Source: a virus | Taxonomy: Duplodnaviria; Heunggongvirae; Uroviricota; Caudoviricetes | Length of the DNA: 14,080 nt | Strand: one strand, 5' to 3' | Virus record (IMG/VR): IMGVR_UViG_2541047854_000001 | Location: 1-14,080 of that record | Part shown: in pieces, positions 4,687-14,080 of the stretch | Position numbering within the stretch: position 1 is the first letter of the stretch | Layout: each line of letters begins with the position of its first letter | Notes under the pieces: model-generated | The model's database searches: none | What the model saw: only the letters and a program-made list of their open reading frames with translations | What the model was told of the DNA's origin: nothing | Program-made: the position numbers and the translations under genes

Positions 4687-4887
4687 ATGACAACTGACGA
4701 TATCGAAAGCTACTTCGGCAGTATTGAGAAAGTTGCTGCTTTTTTCGGCATAACAACTGAAGCCGTTTATCAGTGGCGAAACCGTCCGGGCCAGTTAATT
4801 CCAAAAGGACGTGCAGCAGAAGCTGCATATAGAACTTGCGGACGGTTGCCATTTAAACCTGAGCTTTATGAAAAATCTAATGGATAA
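4687..4887 (+). CDS. Cro-like / YdaS-family small HTH regulator, 66 aa
   Basis: ATG at 4687 with GGAGGG SD; HTH-like segment IEKVAAFFGITTEAVYQWRN. Divergent from the cI-like repressor. Confidence 0.75.
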   Translation: MTTDDIESYFGSIEKVAAFFGITTEAVYQWRNRPGQLIPKGRAAEAAYRTCGRLPFKPELYEKSNG

Positions 4888-5476
4888 ATCGATTAACAGA
4901 AACCACAGAACGATGAGGCTAACCGTGGGTAAGCATCACTGGAAAGTAGAAAAACAGCCTGAGTGGTACGTGAAAGCTGTCAGAAAAACTATCGCAGCGT
5001 TGCCGGGTGGTTACGCTGAAGCAGCTGACTGGCTGGATGTAACAGAAAACGCATTATTTAACCGTCTTCGTGCCGATGGCGATCAGATTTTCCCGCTGGG
5101 ATGGGCAATGATTTTGCAACGTGCTGGTGGAACTCACTTCATTGCTGACGCTGTGGCGCAGTCTGCAAATGGCGTCTTTGTGTCTCTTCCTGACGTCGAG
5201 GATGTGGACAACGCCGATATTAACCAGCGCCTGCTGGAAGTCATTGAACAGATTGGCAGTTATTCCAGACAGATTCGTTCGGCAATCGAAGACGGTGTGG
5301 TGGAACCGCATGAGAAGACAGCAATTAACGACGAGCTGTATCTCTCAATTTCGAAGCTGCAGGAGCATGCAGCACTGGTCTACAAAATCTTTTGCATTTC
5401 AGAAAGTAATGACGCCCGCGAGTGTGCAGCTCCGGGCGCCGTGGCGTGTCGTGACTGTGGAGAAACTAACGCATGA
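4868..5476 (+). CDS. Putative CII/YdaT-like early regulator, possibly chimeric at its C-terminus; start uncertain
   Basis: Immediately follows and overlaps cro in another frame. In-frame starts: GTG 4811 (track), ATG 4868, ATG 4880, and GTG 4925 with a GAGG SD. The Cys-rich C-terminus overlaps the next gene. Product assignment is by position after a YdaS-like Cro. Confidence 0.45.
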
Positions 5477-6044
5477 ACAGTTTAACAACACACTATCGGC
5501 ACTGTTGCCGCCCGGTCCTGCATGGTCAGCCAGCGATCCGGCGATTGCCGGTGCGGCACCTTCATTAACCCGCGTTCATCAGCGTGCGGATGCCCTGATG
5601 CGGGAGCTGGATCCGCGCACCACCACTGAACTGATAAACCGCTGGGAGCGTCTGTGCGGTCTGCCGGATGAATGTATTCCCGCAGGGACACAGACCCTTC
5701 GCCAGCGTCAGCAACGGCTGGATGCGAAGGTTAATCTGGCGGGCGGCATCAATGAGGATTTTTACCTTGCACAGCTTGCTGCCCTGGGCAGACCAGACGC
5801 CACTATCACGCGATACGATAAAAGCACGTTCACCTGCTCATCGGCCTGTACTGACGCGGTGAATGCGCCGGAATGGCGGTATTACTGGCAGATCAACATG
5901 CCAGCCGCCACCAACACCACCTGGATGACATGTGGCGATCCCTGTGATTCCGCGCTGCGTATCTGGGGTGACACCGTTGTCGAGTGTGTGCTTAACAAAC
6001 TCTGCCCGTCGCATACCTACGTAATTTTTAAATATCCGGAGTAA
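5457..6044 (+). CDS. Phage tail protein, Mu gp48 / YmfQ-like (DUF2313 family); start uncertain (GTG 5457, GTG 5451 or ATG 5409)
   Basis: N-terminal [11 protein letters not shown]-type motif and a C-terminal Cys cluster (CGDPCDSAL); sits directly upstream of the tail fiber gene as in Mu-like and e14-like tail modules. The first 96 codons of the track ORF overlap the preceding gene. Confidence 0.6.
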
Positions 6045-6047
6045 TCC

Positions 6048-7061
6048 ATGCATCGTATAGACACGAAAACCGCGCAGAAGGATAAGTTCGGCGCGGGTAA
6101 GAACGGTTTTACCCGTGGTAACCCCCAGACTGGCACGCCTGCCACCGATCTGGATGATGACTACTTTGACATGTTGCAGGAAGAACTTTGTAGCGTTGTT
6201 GAGGCATCCGGTGCCAGTCTGGAGAAGGCGCGGCACGACCAGCTGCTTACCGCGCTTCGTGCGCTGCTGTTAAGCCGCAAGAATCCGTTTGGTGATATCA
6301 AATCGGATGGCACGGTGAAAACGGCTCTCGAAAACCTTGGTTTATCAGACGTTTTACATAAGGGAAATTTTGGTGTCGGGAGTAGGCTGCAAGGTAGTGC
6401 AGCCGGGAATAGCCATGTCGGTGGATTCATGTATGAACCATATCAGGCGAACAATCTTTACCCGCTAAGTGTGGCTTTAATGCAGGCAGCAGGCCCGACA
6501 TCGACAGAATGGGCGCAGCTGGCTGTTTCATATGGTGGGGCATTCAGAGCTTTCCTTGGGCGACAGACTTATAATGGAAATCCTGAAATCAGTGAGTTGT
6601 ACCATGACCAGCGTAAGCCGTCTGCGTCGGATGTTGGTGCCCAACCTCTGAATGCAACTCTCACCACTCTTAGTGGAAAAGATGCGGCAGGATTAAGGAG
6701 CGTCCTAGGGCTTGGAACAACAGCCACAAGAAACGTAGGTACGGGAGCGTCACAAATACCTGATATGAGTTCGTTTTTAAGCGGATCTACAGCATCAGCT
6801 TTTTGGTACAAACTTCCTGGTGGCATGGTGGTGATGGGGGGTAATGCATCTGGAATCGCCTCTGGAACTGCAGGTAATGAGGTCTTCTTCCCAATACCAT
6901 TCCCAAATGCTTGCTCAAGCGTTGTCGTGACATTAGTCAGCAACGGGTTATATGCCGACACAGTCTCGTTTAATACATATATCCCTGGAACTGACCGTTT
7001 TAACATTTATACGAATACAAGCGGCACGTATACTATTTACTACATGGCTTTTGGGAGTTGA
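6048..7061 (+). CDS. Phage side tail fiber protein, 337 aa
   Basis: ATG at 6048 with GGAG SD 6 nt upstream. N-terminus [47 protein letters not shown] is the conserved tail-fiber N-terminal domain; Gly/Ser/Thr-rich distal part. Confidence 0.8.
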
Positions 7062-7062
7062 T

Positions 7063-7479
7063 ATGAACAATTATGTATGGTCTGCATCACATGTTTCATT
7101 TTTTCCAAAATCCATGCTGCCAGATTATGAATCTGCTGGATGGAATCTTTCCGATGTGGTGGATGTTGTTGATGACATTTTTCAAACATACAGATCAATG
7201 CCACCAGAAGGTAAAATTCTTGGGGTTGTTGATGGGATGCCTGAATGGATTGACAAGCCGCCAGTGCCAAATAGCGTGTTGCTTTCAGACGAACTTGCGC
7301 GGCTTGCATCAGAATATAAAAATGACAGAGTTCAATTGAATGACGCATACGTTGCGGCAATGGTAAGCGATAGTCCATCAGAGCAAACTAAGCAGCAGGC
7401 GGTAAGGGATCAAATTATTCAAAGAAAATCTCAGTACACAGCAGACATAGCTGCAGCAAAATTAAAATATCCCATTTAA
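7063..7479 (+). CDS. Tail fiber assembly (chaperone) protein, 138 aa
   Basis: ATG at 7063, 1 nt after the tail fiber stop, with GGGAG SD. The N-terminal YVWSAS...FFP...PEGK...W.D.PP pattern is typical of Tfa proteins. The track ORF starts inside the fiber gene in the same frame. Confidence 0.7.
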   Translation: MNNYVWSASHVSFFPKSMLPDYESAGWNLSDVVDVVDDIFQTYRSMPPEGKILGVVDGMPEWIDKPPVPNSVLLSDELARLASEYKNDRVQLNDAYVAAMVSDSPSEQTKQQAVRDQIIQRKSQYTADIAAAKLKYPI

Positions 7480-7489
7480 GGTGGACATC

Positions 7490-7654
7490 ATGGAAACACA
7501 ATCAAACGAAGAACAAAAACAGAGCCAGCAACAGCAGGATTCTACCGTAAAATTCTGTCCGATATGTGGCTCAACAATGCATCAGCAAGATTATCTGAAT
7601 GGGAAATGGTGGTTTTGTGATGATGAAGAATGCGGTTTTTTTGAGCCCGTCTAA
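7490..7654 (+). CDS. Small zinc-ribbon protein, 54 aa (CPICG ... FCDDEEC), absent from the ORF track
   Basis: ATG at 7490 preceded by AAGGTGGA; Gln-rich N-terminus then CxxC-x16-C-x4-C; TAA at 7652-7654 followed by a terminator hairpin. Confidence 0.5.
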   Translation: METQSNEEQKQSQQQQDSTVKFCPICGSTMHQQDYLNGKWWFCDDEECGFFEPV

Positions 7655-7674
7655 AGTATTTGTTTGCAGGAATT

Positions 7675-7705
7675 AAAGCCCTCTCTGGAGGGCTCATATT
7701 TATTT
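7675..7705. terminator. Bidirectional intrinsic terminator between the convergent zinc-ribbon ORF and acyltransferase gene
   Basis: 7-bp GC-rich stem agccctc / gagggct (7677-7683 with 7688-7694), 4-nt loop, T-rich tract after it on the plus strand and a moderately T-rich tract on the minus strand. Confidence 0.5.
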
Positions 7706-8488
7706 TGCGTATTTCTTTCTAAACCCAAGAAATGGCTTTTCAATCAACTCAAAACATATCTTAGAAAAGATAAGAATTGCAGGTAGTAAAATCAAAAAAT
7801 TAATGACAGCATTAACATTATCATTGTCGATAAACCTCGGAATTCCAAATGTTTTATGGAATGAGTAAAGAACCACACCATGCAATATGTATTCAGAAAA
7901 GCTTACCTCACCAAGTTTAGATAATCCATTATCTATAATGGCAGGTGTTTTTATGCTTGACGATAAGTAAGCAAATACAAAAATACCCCACATGCAAGCC
8001 TCCAGATATGATAAAGAAGTTACATATGGTGTTGGAATGTACCATAAACCCTCAGATCTAAGTGTTAAAAGAGAAAAGAAGACAATTGCAGAACTGGCGA
8101 TGATAAAGATCGGATTAGCGAATTTATCCTTATGGTTTATATATAGATATCCAAACACCATCCCAATTAATAGCTGGTCAAATCGACCAAGCATTGTTAA
8201 GTAGTAATAATGATTGTTCAGATATGAATCCGACCCTAATTCCCCACCATAGATTGCAACGATCATGGTTCTCCAGGCAAGCCAAAAAAGAGACAGATAC
8301 ACAATATACTTCACACCATATCTGTTAAGAAAAAGAGCTAGGAAAGGAAATATTAAGTAAAATTGAAATTCTACTGCTATAGTCCACGTTTGCCCGAAAT
8401 GAGCCAGCAACGGTGATGTTTGCAAATTCGAGAAAAGGAACAAGGATAAAGCATCAGAAAATGTGGCAGTACCTCTAGATAGAGACAT
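7700..8488 (-). CDS. Acyltransferase family 3 (O-antigen O-acetyltransferase-like) membrane protein, N-terminally truncated relative to the family; possible pseudogene
   Basis: TWTIAVEFQFYLIFPF matches the family's SVE.QFY motif, but only about 34 residues after the first ATG. An in-frame R-x-x-R segment (FNRFIRIFPLL) lies upstream of that ATG, and the frame stays open up to the gtrS stop codon. AT-rich and polytopic. Confidence 0.65.
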   Translation of the reverse strand: MSLSRGTATFSDALSLFLFSNLQTSPLLAHFGQTWTIAVEFQFYLIFPFLALFLNRYGVKYIVYLSLFWLAWRTMIVAIYGGELGSDSYLNNHYYYLTMLGRFDQLLIGMVFGYLYINHKDKFANPIFIIASSAIVFFSLLTLRSEGLWYIPTPYVTSLSYLEACMWGIFVFAYLSSSIKTPAIIDNGLSKLGEVSFSEYILHGVVLYSFHKTFGIPRFIDNDNVNAVINFLILLPAILIFSKICFELIEKPFLGFRKKYAK

Positions 8489-8565
8489 GGCGGTAATCCA
8501 TGCTCCAGAAAGGAGTGGGAAGATGCGAATAAATCTATTGAAGATAAAAGACTTATAAGAAATTG

Positions 8566-8595
8566 AAAATCCTCCGGCATAGCCGGAGGATTTTT
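8566..8595 (-). terminator. Strong intrinsic terminator hairpin immediately downstream of the GtrS-like gene
   Basis: 13-bp stem (aaaatcctccggc / gccggaggatttt) with a 3-nt loop, T-runs on both sides, 2 nt after the gtrS stop. Confidence 0.55.
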
Positions 8596-8596
8596 G

Positions 8597-10261
8597 TTAA
8601 AGGGTAAAGTCTATTTGATAATATCTTTTAGAAGGCGTTGTTGAGTCAAATGCTCCAAATGAAGCGTTTTTGATATACCATGATGGCATGTAGTTCAATT
8701 TCGCATAAAGGAACACCCTATCATTTACATAAGCGTAATTTGGCTCGAAATCAAAATTGTGATAATTATCAAATATATCCATCACATGGAAAAGGAAACG
8801 TTGATTAGGCTGTTCAGATAGCCTTTCTTCATGCGTTATTTCAAATAAAAACACAGTCTCCAAACAATATTTATCAGTATACATATAAATACCTTTCAAG
8901 CCTTTCTTGGTAAACATGTTACTGCTGTCGTGAATTTTATATTTATTATTATCTATAACAGAATAATCAAATATTGTGCCATATCCTATAATGTTTTTTT
9001 TATTGTAGTATTTGGACATGGCATCAAAGTTTGTCCATGTGTCAAACATATATGTTGAACTTGGCATTGCTTTGAAATAAAACTCAGGTATTAATGTTTC
9101 TTTTTCATTACTATCATTTTCTTGTATTAATTTAATTCGAATTGAGTTTTGTAAATTAATCGAATGATAAGCGGATATTACCGATATAGACTCAACAATA
9201 AAAGTCAAGAACATCATAGAGTAAAAAACTCTAATAAAATTAGTGCTTAAAATATCATTACGAATAAAGTTTAATGAATATGCGATAGACATTAAACAAA
9301 ATACAAATGATGGTGTTTTCGCTCTATCAGGGAATGCTGGAGAAAACACCATAACAAAAGAGCAGCCTAAAGAAGCCAATAAAAGCACTATGGATATTAA
9401 AAAATCAGTAGGCTTGCCATCTTTTGTAATTAGATTCGATTTTTGAATGCGTATACATAATAAAATTGATACTATAGCTATACTATAAGCTAGTTTAGAT
9501 GATTTAAAGACTTCGGGCATTCTATGAAAAAAATGCAAGTCAATTTTTTCTATTAAAGAAAGTGAGCGCCAGTCTGCGAATGATGGATCCATCATCCTCG
9601 ACTCATTTCCTGGTGTTGCCAATAAAAAAACAGCACCTGTTATTACTAAAATAAAAATAGGCAAAAGCCTTAAATCATTCTTTTTTATTATTACTAGTAA
9701 GTATAAATAACAAAGTAAGATTATACCAATCAAAGTTAAGCTTGCATTTTCATTTGTACATCCTGCTAGTAATGATGCAGGATAAACAACAGGATTGATT
9801 TTTTTATTTTGTATGTAACCAATTACTTCTTTAGCTACAAAAACATATAAAACGGAAGTCCATAAATAGTTTGCACTACCAACAATCCATAAATTTGATT
9901 GTCCAAAGCTTGGATGAGAAAGAAAAAAAATAATCGAAATAAAAGATAATATATACCAGCTTTTTACGGTGTTGTCAAATTTTGAAATTAAATGCAAAAG
10001 CAAGAAAACACCAAATGTTTGAATTGCTGCTATAACAATTTTATTATTCACCAACAACAATGTTGGACTTATAAAATCAGCAACAATTCTTCCACTCCAT
10101 GTTAGATAATGATGCAAGTGCGCATCAAAATTGAATCCAATAATTGCATAGCCATAATCATCTGACTGGAGAGGTGTGTAGTAATTCAAAGTGTAAACTA
10201 CAGCAAGAAATGTTGCGCATACAAAAAAATAAATATATTTATTTAATTTTGGATATTTCAC
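8597..10261 (-). CDS. Type-specific O-antigen glucosyltransferase (GtrS/GtrC-like), 554 aa, polytopic with a soluble C-terminal domain
   Basis: Third gene of a gtrA-gtrB operon; GTG start overlaps the gtrB stop (GTGA). Very AT-rich with many hydrophobic segments. It is 554 aa against 443 aa for K-12 YfdI as I recall it, so a different serotype-specific allele. Confidence 0.7.
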
Positions 10262-11181
10262 TTATCACCTCTGTGCTTTAAGATGTATTTTGGTCTTTTC
10301 TTGGTCTCTATATATATTCTACCAATATATTCACCTAAAAAACCTATACCGATTAACTGAACACCGCCAAGGAATAATATCGAAACAAGTAAAGAAGGAT
10401 ACCCCCTTACAGGATTACCAAAGGCGATTGTATCAATGATCATCCATGCACCATAAAAGAATGAAAAACTAGCCACGACAAGTCCGATATAGGTCCACAT
10501 TCTTAAAGGGAATGTTGAAAAGCTGGTAATGCCCTCAAGCGCTAGGTTCCATAGTTTCCAACCATTAAATTTTGTGCTACCAGCGACACGTTCTGCGCGA
10601 ACATACTCAACAACATCGGTGCGACCACCTACCCAACTCAATACACCTTTCATGAAAAGATTCCGCTCAGGTAGCAGCTTAATGTTCTCAACCACCTCTC
10701 GTGACATAAGACGGAAGTCACCGACATTCTCTTCGATCTGAGGGGTGCTGATTTTGTTATGTAGTTTATAGAACCACTCAGCCGTCTTACGCTTAAGGCG
10801 CCCATCAGTAGAGCGATCAGCGCGCTTGGCAAGCACCATGTCCGCGCCTGCCTGCCACTTCTCAATCAGATGAGGTATAACTTCAATCGGATCTTGTAAG
10901 TCGACATCGATCGGTATAATCGCTTCGCCGGTTGCGTGATCAAGTCCGGCGAATAGAGCAGGTTCTTTACCAAAGTTGCGTGTAAATGACAATGGAACAA
11001 CTAGCGGGTCTGAAATAGCAAGAGCGTTAATAATTGATTCCGTGGCATCTTTGCTTCCGTCATTTATGAAAATAATTTCTACTTCATATGGCTTCAACTC
11101 TTCGAATTCACGTACCGTTTTATAAAAAATTGGTATCGTATCTTCTTCATTGAAGACAGGAACGACCAGAGATATCTTCAT
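10258..11181 (-). CDS. gtrB: Bactoprenol glucosyltransferase GtrB (GT2 family), 307 aa
   Basis: [14 protein letters not shown]-terminus and DVDLQD (DxD) motif with two C-terminal TM segments; ATG overlaps the gtrA stop (ATGA). Corresponds to K-12 yfdH. Confidence 0.9.
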
Positions 11182-11540
11182 TTTGCATCCCTAAATACAA
11201 TGAACTTTGAATAGACGAAACCGCACACCAGGCTGATGGCGGAAAAGGTAATAAGTGTGATAAACGGAGGAAGGGAGCATTTGTCAGCAGCCCAACCTAC
11301 AGTCGCACTCAACATTCCCATGAATCCAACGTATAACATGTAGCGCATCGTTGTAGTTGATGCTTTGAATGTGAATCTTGCATTCGCGAAGAAGCTAAAA
11401 CTCACAGCCACAACGAACCCGGCTAAGTTTGCAAGGGTTTGATTGGTATGCGCGGCGTAGATACATACACCAAAAACCACCCAGTGTATAAGTGTGTTCA
11501 GTACACCAATCGAGGTATACCTCGCGAATAGCTTTAACAT
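11178..11540 (-). CDS. gtrA: Bactoprenol-linked glucose translocase (flippase) GtrA, 120 aa
   Basis: 120-aa hydrophobic GtrA-family protein directly upstream of and coupled to gtrB. Corresponds to K-12 yfdG. Confidence 0.85.
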
Positions 11541-11622
11541 TTCTTCTATCAGCTAATAATCAAAGGCATGAAGTCTATCATCCAAGTCTCAATTGATCGA
11601 GACTTGCTGTAATCACTGAAAC

Positions 11623-11658
11623 ACACAAAGCCTTGCACTGGATTGCAAGGCTTTGTGT
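11623..11658 (-). terminator. 15-bp perfect hairpin downstream of intS (acacaaagccttgca / tgcaaggctttgtgt, 6-nt loop); weak U-tract
   Basis: Perfect inverted repeat 20 nt after the intS stop, lying between intS and the gtr operon. Candidate terminator or insulator. Confidence 0.4.
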
Positions 11659-11678
11659 CATCCGATAGTTAAGGTGGA

Positions 11679-12836
11679 TCACTCCACCTTTTCATCAAGC
11701 CAGTCCGCCCACCACTGCATCATTTCTCTTCGCTTGTCGAGATACTGAGCATGGTTGTAAATTCCACGTACAGATCCGCCATTGGCATGTGCCAGTTGCA
11801 TTTCAATAGCGTCAGCAGGCCATTCGTGCTCGTTCATAATCGTGCTGAATTCATGCCTGAATCCGTGACCGCTTTCCAGACCTTCATAGCCGATTTGTTT
11901 GATCACAAGCAGTACCGCATTCTCGCAGATTGGCTTCTTCTTATCGTTGCGCCCGGCAAAAACAAACTCTGATACTGGCTTGGTGATTGAGCTTAGCGTA
12001 GTGAGAAGTTCAACTACCTGGTCTGATATAGGAACAACATGAATCTTGCGGCCCTTCATCACACTGGCGTCGATAGTGATAATCCTGTTTTCAAAATCGA
12101 CGTTCTTCCATTGCATGGAACGAAGCTCTTTCGTTCTTAGGGCTGTGTAGCGTAAAACTTTGGTCGCAATGAGCGATACGATACTTCCTGAAAATGTTGC
12201 AAGTGCTTTGTTGAATTCCGGGATCTGGTCGGCAGGTAAAAACGGGAAGTTCTTCTTGCGGTATCCCTTCATGGCGTCAGCAAGGTCAGGTGCCGGGTTA
12301 TATTTAGCCCTACCAGTGACAATAGCGTAACGGAAAACCTCGCCGCATCTTCTGCGGGCTTTGTTGGCTCGCTCCATTGCACCGCGATCTTCAAATCTGC
12401 GGATTACTTCCAGCAGTTGCATCGGCTCAATATCCTGAATTTCAAGGCTGCCGATGATAGGTAAAATGTCGTCATCAAACATTTTTGCAAGTTCAGTTGC
12501 ATAGCCTACTGACCAGACTTGCTTCTTGTGCTCGTACCATTCCTTGTATATTGCACTAAAGGAATTGTTGTTAGACGAAGCCTTTTTCGCCTTTACCGGA
12601 TCGATACCAACCGAGATGTCTTTCCTCGCAGTCCATGCCTTATCCCTTGCCTCCTGCAAAGTCATTAGCGGATATTTTCCTACGGTCAGGATTTTCTCCT
12701 TACCGTCAATCTTGTAGCGAAGCTGCCATACCTTTTTCCCTGACACAGGGACATAAAGGTACAGGCCATTACCATCGAGAAGGCGGTATGGTTTTTCTTT
12801 CGGCTTTGCTGCTTCAATCTGCTTAACGGTGAGCAT
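11679..12836 (-). CDS. intS: Prophage integrase IntS (P4-type tyrosine recombinase), 385 aa
   Basis: Adjacent to and co-oriented with argW. ATG at 12836 gives 385 aa starting MLTVKQIEAAKPKEKPYRLLDGNGLYLYV. The track ORF starts 12 codons upstream at GTG 12872. C-terminal catalytic region contains HGFRH and a tyrosine. Confidence 0.9.
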   Translation of the reverse strand: MLTVKQIEAAKPKEKPYRLLDGNGLYLYVPVSGKKVWQLRYKIDGKEKILTVGKYPLMTLQEARDKAWTARKDISVGIDPVKAKKASSNNNSFSAIYKEWYEHKKQVWSVGYATELAKMFDDDILPIIGSLEIQDIEPMQLLEVIRRFEDRGAMERANKARRRCGEVFRYAIVTGRAKYNPAPDLADAMKGYRKKNFPFLPADQIPEFNKALATFSGSIVSLIATKVLRYTALRTKELRSMQWKNVDFENRIITIDASVMKGRKIHVVPISDQVVELLTTLSSITKPVSEFVFAGRNDKKKPICENAVLLVIKQIGYEGLESGHGFRHEFSTIMNEHEWPADAIEMQLAHANGGSVRGIYNHAQYLDKRREMMQWWADWLDEKVE

Positions 12837-12997
12837 GGGTAAAAATCCGGTGGGTAAAATTATTTTATCCACTTTTTACCCGTCATGGAGTGCGGCTGTC
12901 AACGATCTGAAGCGAACCATGACAAACTGTGAATCTACGGAAGGCTTGATATTTAGGGGGTTTTGCGGACTGGTACGGATGGGAGCGAACTGATAAA

Positions 12998-13072
12998 TGG
13001 TGTCCCCTGCAGGAATCGAACCTGCAATTAGCCCTTAGGAGGGGCTCGTTATATCCATTTAACTAAGAGGAC
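12998..13072 (-). tRNA. argW: tRNA-Arg (anticodon CCU), 75 nt, encoded CCA
   Basis: Reverse complement GTCCTCTTAGTTAAATGGATATAACGAGCCCCTCCTAAGGGCTAATTGCAGGTTCGATTCCTGCAGGGGACACCA folds as a cloverleaf: 7-bp acceptor stem with one G-U pair, anticodon stem AGCCC/GGGCT with loop CTCCTAA, T-arm GCAGG/CCTGC. Confidence 0.9.
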
Positions 13073-13125
13073 AATGCGGCATGAGTATACCCGCTAATGG
13101 AGTGCGGGGTAAGTACGCTGCCGCT
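13073..13125 (-). promoter_or_regulatory. Putative argW promoter (-10 TATACT about 12 nt upstream of the mature tRNA 5' end)
   Basis: On the minus strand TATACT lies at 13088-13083, followed by a GC-rich discriminator-like catgccgc. The -35 is weak. Confidence 0.3.
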
Positions 13126-13147
13126 CGATTGCTTAAACCCTCGCCAT

Positions 13148-14080
13148 TTATGCCGGGTTTTTATAATTTTTCTTAATGTTTTCCGCACGTTCTGCTTTTT
13201 GGCGTGCTTCTGCTTTACGCTTATTGCTCATGTCGTTACGAATCTGTGCATGACTCATTAACGCGAAGATAAAGGTGCCGCCGCAGATGTTCCCCGCTAA
13301 AGTAGGTAGTGCGAAGGGCCAGATGAAATCGCTCCAGTGCAGCGTACCGTTAAACACCAGATAGAGGATTTCAACAGAACCGACCACGATATGGGTGGTG
13401 TCACCCAGGGCAATAAGCCAGGTCATCAATATAATCACCACAATCTTTGCCGCACCCGCTGCAGGAAACATCCAAACCATAGTGGCGATCAGCCAGCCGG
13501 AAATGATCGCGTTGGCAAACATCTCGCTGGGGGTGTTCTTCATCACATCCATGCCGATTTTGACAAATGCATCGCGAGTTTCTTCATTGAAGATAGGCAT
13601 ATATTCAAATGCCCACGCCGCAATACCTGTCCCGAGAATATTACCCAGCAGCACGACGCCCCATAACCGTATAAGTAAGCCGACGTTGCTCATTGTCGGT
13701 TTTTGCATGACGGGTAGTACCGCAGTCACGGTATTTTCGGTAAATAATTGCTGGCGGGCCATAATGACGATAATAAAACCAAAGGTATAACCGAGATTCT
13801 CCAGCAAGAAGCTGCCCGGCACACCTTCCAGTTCGACATGAAATATCCCTTTTGCCAGTAACGAAGCGCCCATCGACAGACCCGCCGCAATGGCTGACCA
13901 CAGTAGCGCCATTGCGTCGCGTTCCAGCTCTTTTTCACCATCCTGGCGGATATGCTCATGAATTGCCATCGCCCGGGAGGGGAGTCGGTCTTCATCTATT
14001 TCTATTTTTTTGCCGCGCTCTTTTTCTTCGCTCTCAACTTCAATTTCGTCGCTGTGTTGATCAATTTTGTCGTTGTCCAT
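13148..14080 (-). CDS. yfdC: Formate/nitrite transporter (FNT) family inner-membrane protein YfdC, 310 aa
   Basis: ATG at 14080-14078, exactly at the window edge. Acidic N-terminal tail followed by multiple TM segments. Length and position next to argW match K-12 yfdC. Confidence 0.85.
   Translation of the reverse strand: MDNDKIDQHSDEIEVESEEKERGKKIEIDEDRLPSRAMAIHEHIRQDGEKELERDAMALLWSAIAAGLSMGASLLAKGIFHVELEGVPGSFLLENLGYTFGFIIVIMARQQLFTENTVTAVLPVMQKPTMSNVGLLIRLWGVVLLGNILGTGIAAWAFEYMPIFNEETRDAFVKIGMDVMKNTPSEMFANAIISGWLIATMVWMFPAAGAAKIVVIILMTWLIALGDTTHIVVGSVEILYLVFNGTLHWSDFIWPFALPTLAGNICGGTFIFALMSHAQIRNDMSNKRKAEARQKAERAENIKKNYKNPA

What the first reader, a model, noticed from the sequence alone, without database searches (positions are those of the whole stretch)
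7700..10261. GtrS-like gene and acyltransferase share one reading frame, separated by a single TAA and a terminator hairpin
The 554-aa GtrS-like ORF (8597-10261) and the acyltransferase ORF (7700-8488) are in the same frame. The 108 nt between them contain no stop other than the gtrS TAA and encode the family's R-x-x-R loop motif (FNRFIRIFPLL) upstream of the first ATG. That ATG has poor SD spacing, and the SVE.QFY motif begins only about 34 residues into the product, so roughly 60-100 N-terminal residues expected for the family are missing. A 13-bp terminator hairpin sits inside this open frame. Either an O-acetyltransferase gene was decapitated when the gtr module and terminator were joined, or the locus derives from a longer fused or read-through ORF. 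Both genes are strikingly AT-rich, and the GtrS allele differs in size from K-12 YfdI, so this is a swapped serotype-conversion cassette.
Basis: partly seen in the sequence, partly recalled or inferred. Interest (0 to 1): 0.55.

Follow-up and report, generated by a model that had tools for sequence, protein, structure and literature searches.

The report
Deletion-truncated acetyltransferase pseudogene beside gtr operon
A 1.5-kb deletion in a decaying E. coli prophage removed the front of a sugar-acetylating membrane enzyme gene and left the remnant just behind the terminator of a neighbouring sugar-adding gene; the shared reading frame is coincidence, so this is an ordinary dead gene.

Summary
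Their meaning is ordinary.

The window is the cryptic CPS-53/KpLE1-type prophage at tRNA-Arg(CCT) of E. coli, with intS, gtrA, gtrB and a 554-aa DUF6056 GtrC-type gene.

The ORF at 7700-8488 is the 3' part of a 360-aa AT3 (PF01757) acyltransferase gene. Homology to the full-length gene runs to window 8563 and stops 2 nt from the gtrS terminator stem.

E. coli FORC_082 and a food-metagenome contig keep the ancestral layout: full-length acyltransferase, its upstream region, an S24-peptidase fragment, an IS3-family remnant, then the same terminator and gtrS. The window equals that layout minus 1,508 bp.

The deletion removed codons 1-73. These hold TMH1 with the family's essential R-X10-H motif and TMH2, plus the gene's own upstream region. 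The first ATG is Met99, so the RXXR motif is also excluded.

An in-frame, stop-free joint is expected by chance about 19% of the time. Every carrier examined keeps the TAA, so nothing supports a fused or read-through ORF.

The same joint occurs in at least 24 public contigs, all identical. Verdict: a 5'-truncated pseudogene, of low interest.

The parts
7700..8563 (-). 3' remnant of an AT3 (PF01757) O-acyltransferase gene. It corresponds to codons 74-360 plus the stop of a 360-aa protein. The longest ATG-initiated ORF is 7700-8488 (262 aa, starting at Met99).
   Evidence: 97.6-98.3% DNA identity to loci that carry the full-length gene, over alignments that all end at window 8563; within the remnant itself there are only 3-9 differences in 864 nt. 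PF01757 hit of 59.4 bits covering only profile positions 66-321 of 326, or 115-321 for the ATG ORF. Protein comparison.
8563..8564 (.). Deletion joint. Base 8563 is the last acyltransferase-side base and 8564 the first gtrS-side base. 1,508 bp present in FORC_082 (L004 6165-7672) are missing.
   Evidence: BLAST breakpoints and three-way alignments. There is no microhomology at the joint. A 9-bp repeat AGACTTATA lies 6 nt and 8 nt before the two endpoints.
8566..8594 (-). Intrinsic terminator hairpin of the gtr operon (13-bp stem, 3-nt loop). It is ancestral to gtrS and now sits directly upstream of the remnant.
   Evidence: -21.2 kcal/mol, z = -6.5. The identical hairpin follows gtrS in FORC_082 and in L009.
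8597..10261 (-). gtrS/gtrC-type serotype-specific glucosyltransferase gene (554 aa, DUF6056 = GT_STM0557_N). Its GTG start overlaps the gtrB stop by 4 nt. It ends in TAA at 8599-8597.
   Evidence: PF19528 at 193.7 bits. 28.5% identity over 87% of its length to phage epsilon34 GtrC. Synteny after gtrA and gtrB.
10258..11181 (-). gtrB (yfdH), bactoprenol glucosyltransferase of GT2 family.
   Evidence: PF00535 at 112 bits. RefSeq annotation as yfdH. 91% identical to K-12 from window 10276 onward.
11178..11540 (-). gtrA (yfdG), the small membrane protein encoded first in gtr clusters (conventionally called the flippase).
   Evidence: PF04138 at 52 bits. RefSeq annotation as yfdG.
11679..12872 (-). 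Prophage integrase intS.
   Evidence: Phage_integrase and Arm-DNA-binding domains. RefSeq annotation as intS.
12998..13072 (-). tRNA-Arg(CCT), argW, the attachment site of the prophage.
   Evidence: ARAGORN. RefSeq annotation.
7677..7694 (+). Terminator-like hairpin between the convergent tail-fibre-side genes and the acyltransferase stop codon.

Best explanation
The ORF at 7700-8488 is the dead 3' part of an AT3-family, Oac-like, AT3-only O-acyltransferase gene.

In the ancestral prophage the intact 360-aa gene lay convergent to the tail-fibre genes. It sat about 1.3 kb downstream of the gtrABS operon, measured from the gtrS stop to the acyltransferase start codon. An S24-peptidase fragment and an IS3-family remnant separated the two.

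One illegitimate deletion of 1,508 bp removed codons 1-73, the gene's own upstream region and the intervening junk. The deletion stopped 2 nt short of the gtrS terminator stem.

The remnant therefore lacks TMH1, which carries the catalytic R16-X10-H27 motif, and TMH2. It has no promoter of its own and sits behind a strong terminator. Its first ATG, Met99, also excludes the RXXR motif and nearly all of TMH3. It is a pseudogene.

The gtrABS operon is untouched and presumably still glucosylates the O-antigen. Sharing a frame with gtrS is an accident of where the deletion ended.

What is shown: the deletion, its endpoints, the lost motifs and helices, and that the TAA and terminator are ancestral. 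What is inferred: loss of expression and of activity.
For: **Ancestral layout and the deletion**
- Window 5496-8563 matches FORC_082 L004 3097-6164, and window 8549-14080 matches L004 7656-13190.
- The segment missing from the window holds the 5' 219 nt of a 1,083-nt acyltransferase CDS, an S24-peptidase fragment and a frameshifted IS3-family transposase.
- Food-metagenome contig L009 has the same undeleted layout with an intact 360-aa ORF.
- Full-length genes were read in E. coli NT1F10 and S1-INA-02-A; ten further complete genomes match over the same span, to window 8563.

**What was lost**
- In 112 homologues, H27, G48, G51 and F55 are invariant. D13, H14, R16, A19, L56, G60 and F63 are at least 90% conserved. 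All lie in the deleted residues 1-73.
- In OafA, R14A and H25A in the R/K-X10-H motif of TMH1 leave 0.07% and 0.33% of activity. The RXXR arginines are also essential (PMC7448272).
- The AlphaFold model of the 93%-identical 360-aa P0001 (pLDDT 90.5) puts helices at 10-31, 40-45, 49-66 and 76-101. The deletion therefore removes TMH1 and TMH2, and Met99 lies at the end of TMH3.
- No homologue begins at the equivalent Met.

**Expression signals**
- The terminator folds at -21.2 kcal/mol.
- No promoter-like site lies between the terminator and the ATG.

**Spread of the allele**
- The joint is identical, TAA included, in AF56, in nine further public places and in an IMG/VR contig.
Against: - The remaining 864 nt are still an open frame.
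- RefSeq annotates the remnant as an intact 'acyltransferase family protein' of 274 aa (ATC start at 8524) or 287 aa (ATT start at 8563).
- No expression data were available, so read-through of the terminator and translation of a truncated membrane protein cannot be excluded.
- There are only 3-9 nucleotide differences from full-length copies. That is too few to show relaxed selection.
Confidence: 0.93

Rival explanations
1. The remnant is still expressed, by terminator read-through or an internal promoter, using ATT 8563, ATC 8524 or ATG 8488. It would work as a shortened acyltransferase or have some other membrane role.
For: The ORF is intact over 262-287 codons. The RXXR motif would be retained if a non-ATG start were used. 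RefSeq does not flag the gene as a pseudogene. The allele persists in at least 24 contigs.
Against: TMH1 with the R-X10-H motif and TMH2 are gone. The TMH1 residues are essential in OafA. The candidate starts are non-canonical or have GGAG 14 nt away. A -21 kcal/mol terminator lies directly upstream. The sister allele in FORC_082 carries a nonsense codon, so the gene is dispensable in this locus. Persistence is explained by linkage to the rest of the prophage, since the carriers are 100% identical.
Confidence: 0.04
2. The locus descends from, or functions as, a single long gtrS-acyltransferase fusion or read-through ORF, with the TAA as a recent or leaky stop.
For: The two ORFs share a frame, and TAA is the only stop in the 108-nt spacer.
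Against: In the undeleted relatives gtrS ends with the same TAA and the same terminator, 1.3 kb away from the acyltransferase start codon. All sampled carriers of the joint keep the TAA. The probability of an in-frame open joint by chance is about 0.19. The 11 codons between the TAA and the joint are the terminator hairpin itself. None of the 120 best homologues is long enough to hold a 554-aa GtrS as well (the longest are 564 and 578 aa), and each carries only the Acyl_transf_3 domain.
Confidence: 0.005
3. The short arrangement is ancestral. The FORC_082 and L009 layout arose by insertion of a 1.5-kb segment.
For: The extra segment contains an IS3-family remnant.
Against: The 'inserted' segment would have had to supply 73 N-terminal codons that are conserved in Morganella, Aeromonas, Salmonella, Xenorhabdus, Enterobacter and other genera. 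IS homology covers only L004 6830 to about 7596, not the segment ends. The same acyltransferase, S24 fragment and IS-remnant block occurs in other prophages that have no gtrS.
Confidence: 0.01

Closest known systems
AT3-only O-antigen O-acetyltransferases of serotype-converting phages (Oac/OacA of Shigella phage Sf6, OacB, OacC, OacD, phiV10 Oac), Pfam PF01757
   Same: The intact relative is a 360-aa, ten-helix, AT3-only membrane protein with R-X10-H, an FLVLSG motif (FFXISG-like) and RXXR. It is AT-rich and prophage-borne, and it sits beside a gtr cluster, so it looks like a lysogenic-conversion gene.
   Different: The window copy lacks residues 1-73, so it cannot be a working member. Even the intact protein gave no tblastn match at E <= 1e-5 in 50,697 phage records. 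It is therefore not a close relative of the characterised Oac proteins, and its substrate is unknown.
gtrABC (gtrA-gtrB-gtr[type]) O-antigen glucosylation clusters, e.g. K-12 CPS-53 yfdG-yfdH-yfdI, Salmonella phage epsilon34 gtrABC, Salmonella STM0559-0557
   Same: The order is integrase, gtrA, gtrB, then a variable polytopic glucosyltransferase, next to a tRNA attachment site. gtrA and gtrB are conserved (91% to K-12). The third gene is swapped at the gtrB/gtrS boundary. It belongs to DUF6056/GT_STM0557_N and is 28.5% identical to epsilon34 GtrC.
   Different: The gtrS allele is rare: 2 of 5,426 complete E. coli genomes match at the DNA level. It is unrelated to K-12 yfdI. Its sugar target is untested.
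Gene remnants in cryptic prophages such as CPS-53/KpLE1, DLP12 and e14
   Same: Stepwise deletions, IS remnants, truncated tail genes and pseudogenes. The same lineage shows a second deletion joint at 5493/5494, a gtrS frameshift in one carrier and a nonsense allele in FORC_082.
   Different: Nothing notable. This is a typical example.

Membership tests
AT3 acyltransferase (PF01757), functional member | Significant match to the Acyl_transf_3 profile | tested here: met
   59.4 bits against a cut-off of 31, but covering only profile positions 66-321 of 326. For the ATG ORF the figures are 53.4 bits and positions 115-321. The full-length relative covers 3-321 at 105.8 bits.
AT3 acyltransferase (PF01757), functional member | R/K-X10-H motif in TMH1 (essential in OafA: R14, H25) | tested here: not met
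   R16 and H27 of the 360-aa protein lie in the deleted residues 1-73. Essentiality comes from PMC7448272.
AT3 acyltransferase (PF01757), functional member | TMH2 FFXISG-type motif | tested here: not met
   F55-L56-V57-L58-S59-G60 is deleted.
AT3 acyltransferase (PF01757), functional member | RXXR motif (essential in Oac, OafA, OafB) | tested here: inconclusive
   R83 and R86 are encoded at 8536-8525. They lie upstream of the only ATG (8488), so they are present in a product only if ATT 8563 or ATC 8524 initiates translation.
AT3 acyltransferase (PF01757), functional member | Ten transmembrane helices | tested here: not met
   The AlphaFold model of the 93%-identical full-length P0001 gives helices at 10-31 and 49-66, which are lost. 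Helix 76-101 is lost almost entirely if translation starts at Met99. That leaves 8 or 7 of 10 helices.
AT3 acyltransferase (PF01757), functional member | O-acylation of a surface carbohydrate | not testable with these tools
   This needs O-antigen NMR or mass spectrometry on strains with and without the allele.
gtrABC O-antigen glucosylation cluster | GtrA (PF04138) and GtrB (GT2, PF00535) genes in tandem | tested here: met
   RefSeq names them yfdG and yfdH.
gtrABC O-antigen glucosylation cluster | A third, variable polytopic glucosyltransferase gene immediately downstream | tested here: met
   DUF6056/GT_STM0557_N at 193.7 bits. 4-nt overlap with the gtrB stop. Homology to epsilon34 GtrC.
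gtrABC O-antigen glucosylation cluster | Prophage context next to an integrase and a tRNA attachment site | tested here: met
   intS at 11679-12872 and tRNA-Arg(CCT) at 12998-13072.
gtrABC O-antigen glucosylation cluster | Glucosylation of the O-antigen | not testable with these tools
   No biochemical data are available.

The most novel reading that the evidence does not exclude
The acyltransferase next to this particular gtrS has been knocked out at least twice independently. One event is the Q131* nonsense allele of FORC_082, whose downstream fragment is seen on 51 contigs. The other is the 1,508-bp deletion, seen on at least 24 contigs, which still has Gln at codon 131. An intact copy survives in a food-metagenome contig. 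This could reflect selection against combining O-acetylation with this glucosylation on the host O-antigen, for example through incompatibility or phage or immune pressure, rather than neutral prophage decay.
Probability: 0.12. Interest if true: 0.3.

Novelty: already known. Interest (0 to 1): 0.08.

Why it matters
It matters little biologically. This is one more pseudogene in a cryptic prophage.

There is a practical point for annotation. RefSeq and GenBank list the remnant as an intact 'acyltransferase family protein' of 262, 274 or 287 aa, two of these with non-canonical ATC or ATT starts. It should be flagged as 5'-truncated.

For predicting O-antigen structure from sequence, strains with this allele should be scored as gtr-positive and acetyltransferase-negative.

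Tried and rejected
- **tblastn against phages.** The full-length acyltransferase gave no match at E <= 1e-5 in 50,697 phage records. I could not tie it to a characterised Oac.
- **NCBIfam.** No family matched the acyltransferase or gtrS.
- **PDB by sequence.** No match.
- **PDB by fold.** Only a weak match to human HGSNAT (probability 0.93-0.99, TM-score 0.42-0.48). This fits the published TmAT superfamily link (title and abstract of PMC12423673, listed; paper not read) but adds nothing here.
- **Exact joint in other collections.** Zero hits in the GTDB species representatives and in JGI metagenome contigs.
- **Exact terminator sequence.** The same search gave chance palindromes in Clostridia and Treponema MAGs, plus the useful contig L009.
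- **IS-mediated deletion: rejected.** IS3-family homology ends at about L004 7596, 76 nt before the right endpoint. The IS copy is itself a defective fragment.
- **Clean recombination between direct repeats: rejected.** The 9-bp AGACTTATA repeats lie 6 nt and 8 nt before the breakpoints, and the joint has 0 bp of microhomology. They may have helped misalignment, but the product is not the simple repeat recombinant.
- **dN/dS.** There are too few differences, 3-9 in 864 nt, to be informative.
Full report
**Where we are**

The window is the prophage at the argW site of E. coli. It holds yfdC (13148-14080), tRNA-Arg(CCT) (12998-13072) and intS (11679-12872). Then come gtrA/yfdG (11178-11540), gtrB/yfdH (10258-11181) and a 554-aa DUF6056 gene (8597-10261), all on the minus strand. 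The far left end is torI, yfdT, yfdS, yfdR and yfdQ, as in K-12 CPS-53/KpLE1. Window 5494-14080 is 100% identical to E. coli AF56, NZ_OZ546963.1.

**Checking the observation**

- The two ORFs are at the stated coordinates.
- They share a frame, and TAA (8599-8597) is the only stop across the 108-nt spacer.
- The spacer encodes ...ISYKSFIFNRFIRIFPLLSGAWITA before the ATG at 8488.
- A 13-bp stem with a 3-nt loop lies at 8594-8566. It folds at -21.2 kcal/mol, z = -6.5.
- The nearest GGAG lies 14 nt before the ATG.
- GC falls to 27-31% in gtrS and 35-37% in the acyltransferase, against 41-58% around them.

One small correction: AVEFQFY starts at residue 38 of the ATG product, not 34.

**What the acyltransferase ORF really is**

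A megablast of 7400-10400 against 5,426 complete E. coli genomes found 14 genomes with the acyltransferase region. In 12 of them the match stops at window 8563, 75 nt upstream of the ATG. In NT1F10 and S1-INA-02-A the gene is a 1,083-nt, 360-aa 'acyltransferase family protein'. The window therefore keeps codons 74-360 and has lost codons 1-73.

FORC_082 (NZ_CP026641.1) holds both halves of the window with an extra 1.5 kb between them. Its order is tail-fibre chaperone, small ORF, full-length acyltransferase (with an internal stop, Q131*), S24-peptidase fragment, frameshifted IS3-family transposase, then the same terminator, gtrS, gtrB, gtrA, intS and argW. A food-metagenome contig (L009, UOZS01001069) has that same undeleted layout, 99.6% identical to FORC_082, with an intact 360-aa ORF. 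An IMG/VR contig (L022) likewise has the intact gene followed by the S24 and IS block.

**The joint**

The window equals the FORC_082 or L009 layout minus L004 6165-7672, which is 1,508 bp. On the plus strand the window reads ...AGACTTATAAGAAAT|TGAAAATCCTCCGG..., with the joint between 8563 and 8564. That is 2 nt from the base of the terminator stem.

There is no microhomology at the joint itself. A 9-bp direct repeat, AGACTTATA, lies 6 nt before the left breakpoint and 8 nt before the right one. It may have favoured misalignment, but the product is not the simple repeat recombinant.

IS homology ends about 76 nt before the right endpoint, so this is not an IS-end event.

**What was lost**

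I aligned 34 and then 112 family members. The genera include Morganella, Aeromonas, Salmonella, Xenorhabdus, Enterobacter, Pseudomonas and Pandoraea.
- H27, G48, G51 and F55 are invariant.
- D13, H14, R16, A19, L56, G60 and F63 are at least 90% conserved.
- All of these lie within residues 1-73.

R16-X10-H27 is the family's TMH1 R/K-X10-H motif. In OafA, the R14A and H25A mutants retain 0.07% and 0.33% of activity. The authors argue that these residues matter for all AT3 proteins, and the RXXR arginines are also essential (PMC7448272).

An AlphaFold model of the 93%-identical 360-aa P0001 has mean pLDDT 90.5 and pTM 0.90. It places helices at 10-31 (TMH1), 40-45, 49-66 (TMH2) and 76-101 (TMH3), followed by seven more membrane helices. 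The deletion therefore removes TMH1 and TMH2. Met99 lies at the end of TMH3, so the ATG product also lacks RXXR (R83, R86).

Pfam agrees: the profile match starts at position 66, or at 115 for the ATG ORF, instead of 3. Among the 120 best homologues almost all are 346-385 aa and cover 98-100% of the query. The few short ones are C-terminally cut or contig-end partials, and none begins at the equivalent Met.

**Why the shared frame means nothing**

Of the 36 spacer codons, 25 are genuine acyltransferase codons (74-98) and are open for that reason. The other 11 are the terminator hairpin. A random 1-in-3 frame match, times a 0.57 probability that 11 codons of that composition hold no stop, gives about 0.19.

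In the undeleted relatives gtrS already ends with the same TAA and hairpin, 1.3 kb from the acyltransferase start codon. Nine further public places with the joint are 100% identical to the window over the compared span, apart from one 1-nt indel inside gtrS in L015. For seven of them that span is the whole gtrS-to-remnant stretch; two contigs begin inside gtrS. All keep the TAA. A fused or read-through origin is not supported.

**Expression (inferred)**

The gene's native upstream region is gone. No sigma-70-like site lies between the hairpin and the ATG, and the terminator is strong. The deletion replaced the tail after the stem, CAGAUGCGCC, with CAAUUUCUUA. This is more U-rich, so termination is if anything better; that is an inference. 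I conclude the remnant is a silent or non-functional pseudogene. I could not test this directly.

**Distribution**

The joint is in 1 of 5,426 complete E. coli genomes. The exact 262-aa ORF is recorded on 23 or more contigs, in 33 index blocks, including E. coli KOEGE 40. One IMG/VR contig also carries it.

The allele lies in prophages at different stages of decay. Some carriers have the whole Mu-like baseplate module to the left. The window and GCA_008917175.1 have a further deletion joint at 5493/5494, and one carrier has a frameshifted gtrS.

The FORC_082 nonsense allele is independent, because the window still has Gln at codon 131. Its 188-aa fragment is seen on 51 contigs.

**The gtr side**

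K-12 homology (91%) runs from yfdC through gtrB and stops at 10276, 18 nt before the gtrB stop. K-12 has the unrelated 443-aa yfdI at this position. The 554-aa protein belongs to DUF6056, named GT_STM0557_N in newer Pfam releases. It is 28.5% identical over 87% of its length to GtrC of Salmonella phage epsilon34.

**Comparison with what is known, and verdict**

The intact relative works like the AT3-only O-antigen acetyltransferases of converting phages (Oac family; PMC9558356). It is not close to them in sequence. The window copy fails three defining features of a functional AT3 protein: the TMH1 motif, the TMH2 motif and the ten helices.

The finding is a correctly observed but ordinary deletion-truncated pseudogene in a cryptic prophage, wrongly annotated as intact in public records. 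Interest is low.

Noticed in passing
window 5493/5494 (ORFs 4811-5476 and 5121-6044, + strand): A second deletion or recombination joint. Identity to AF56 and to most other carriers starts at 5494, 34 nt inside the ymfQ (Mu gp48-like) baseplate gene. To the left lies a CII/CP76-like regulator gene. All head and most tail genes are therefore missing, and the ymfQ-like ORF has a foreign 5' end. The same arrangement is found in GCA_008917175.1 (L017).
   Followed up: partly
window 8524 and 8563 (RefSeq and GenBank annotations of the remnant): Public records annotate the truncated gene as an intact 'acyltransferase family protein' with different starts. WP_244572455.1 is 274 aa, from ATC at 8524. 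WP_219395214.1 is 287 aa, which matches an ATT start at 8563. GenBank entries are 262 aa from the ATG. None is flagged as a pseudogene.
   Followed up: partly
L004 (FORC_082) 5301-6383; L015 1229-2892: There are independent lesions in the same module. FORC_082 has a Q131* nonsense codon in the otherwise full-length acyltransferase, and its 188-aa fragment is seen on 51 contigs. One carrier of the deletion allele (SRR31140951) has a 1-nt indel that splits gtrS into 424 aa and 106 aa.
   Followed up: partly
L002 and L003 6301-8131 (E. coli NT1F10, S1-INA-02-A): The block of tail fibre, chaperone, 54-aa ORF, intact acyltransferase, S24-peptidase fragment and IS3 remnant also occurs in prophages at other chromosomal sites with no gtr cluster. 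The acyltransferase therefore travels with the tail-fibre end of the phage, not with gtr.
   Followed up: partly
window 8564-8575 versus L004 7660-7672: The deletion replaced the sequence just 3' of the gtrS terminator stem. CAGAUGCGCC became the more U-rich CAAUUUCUUA. This might slightly strengthen termination of the gtr operon.
   Followed up: no
window 10276: The boundary of the gtrS cassette swap relative to K-12 lies 18 nt before the gtrB stop. It coincides with the drop in GC from about 45% to about 30%.
   Followed up: partly
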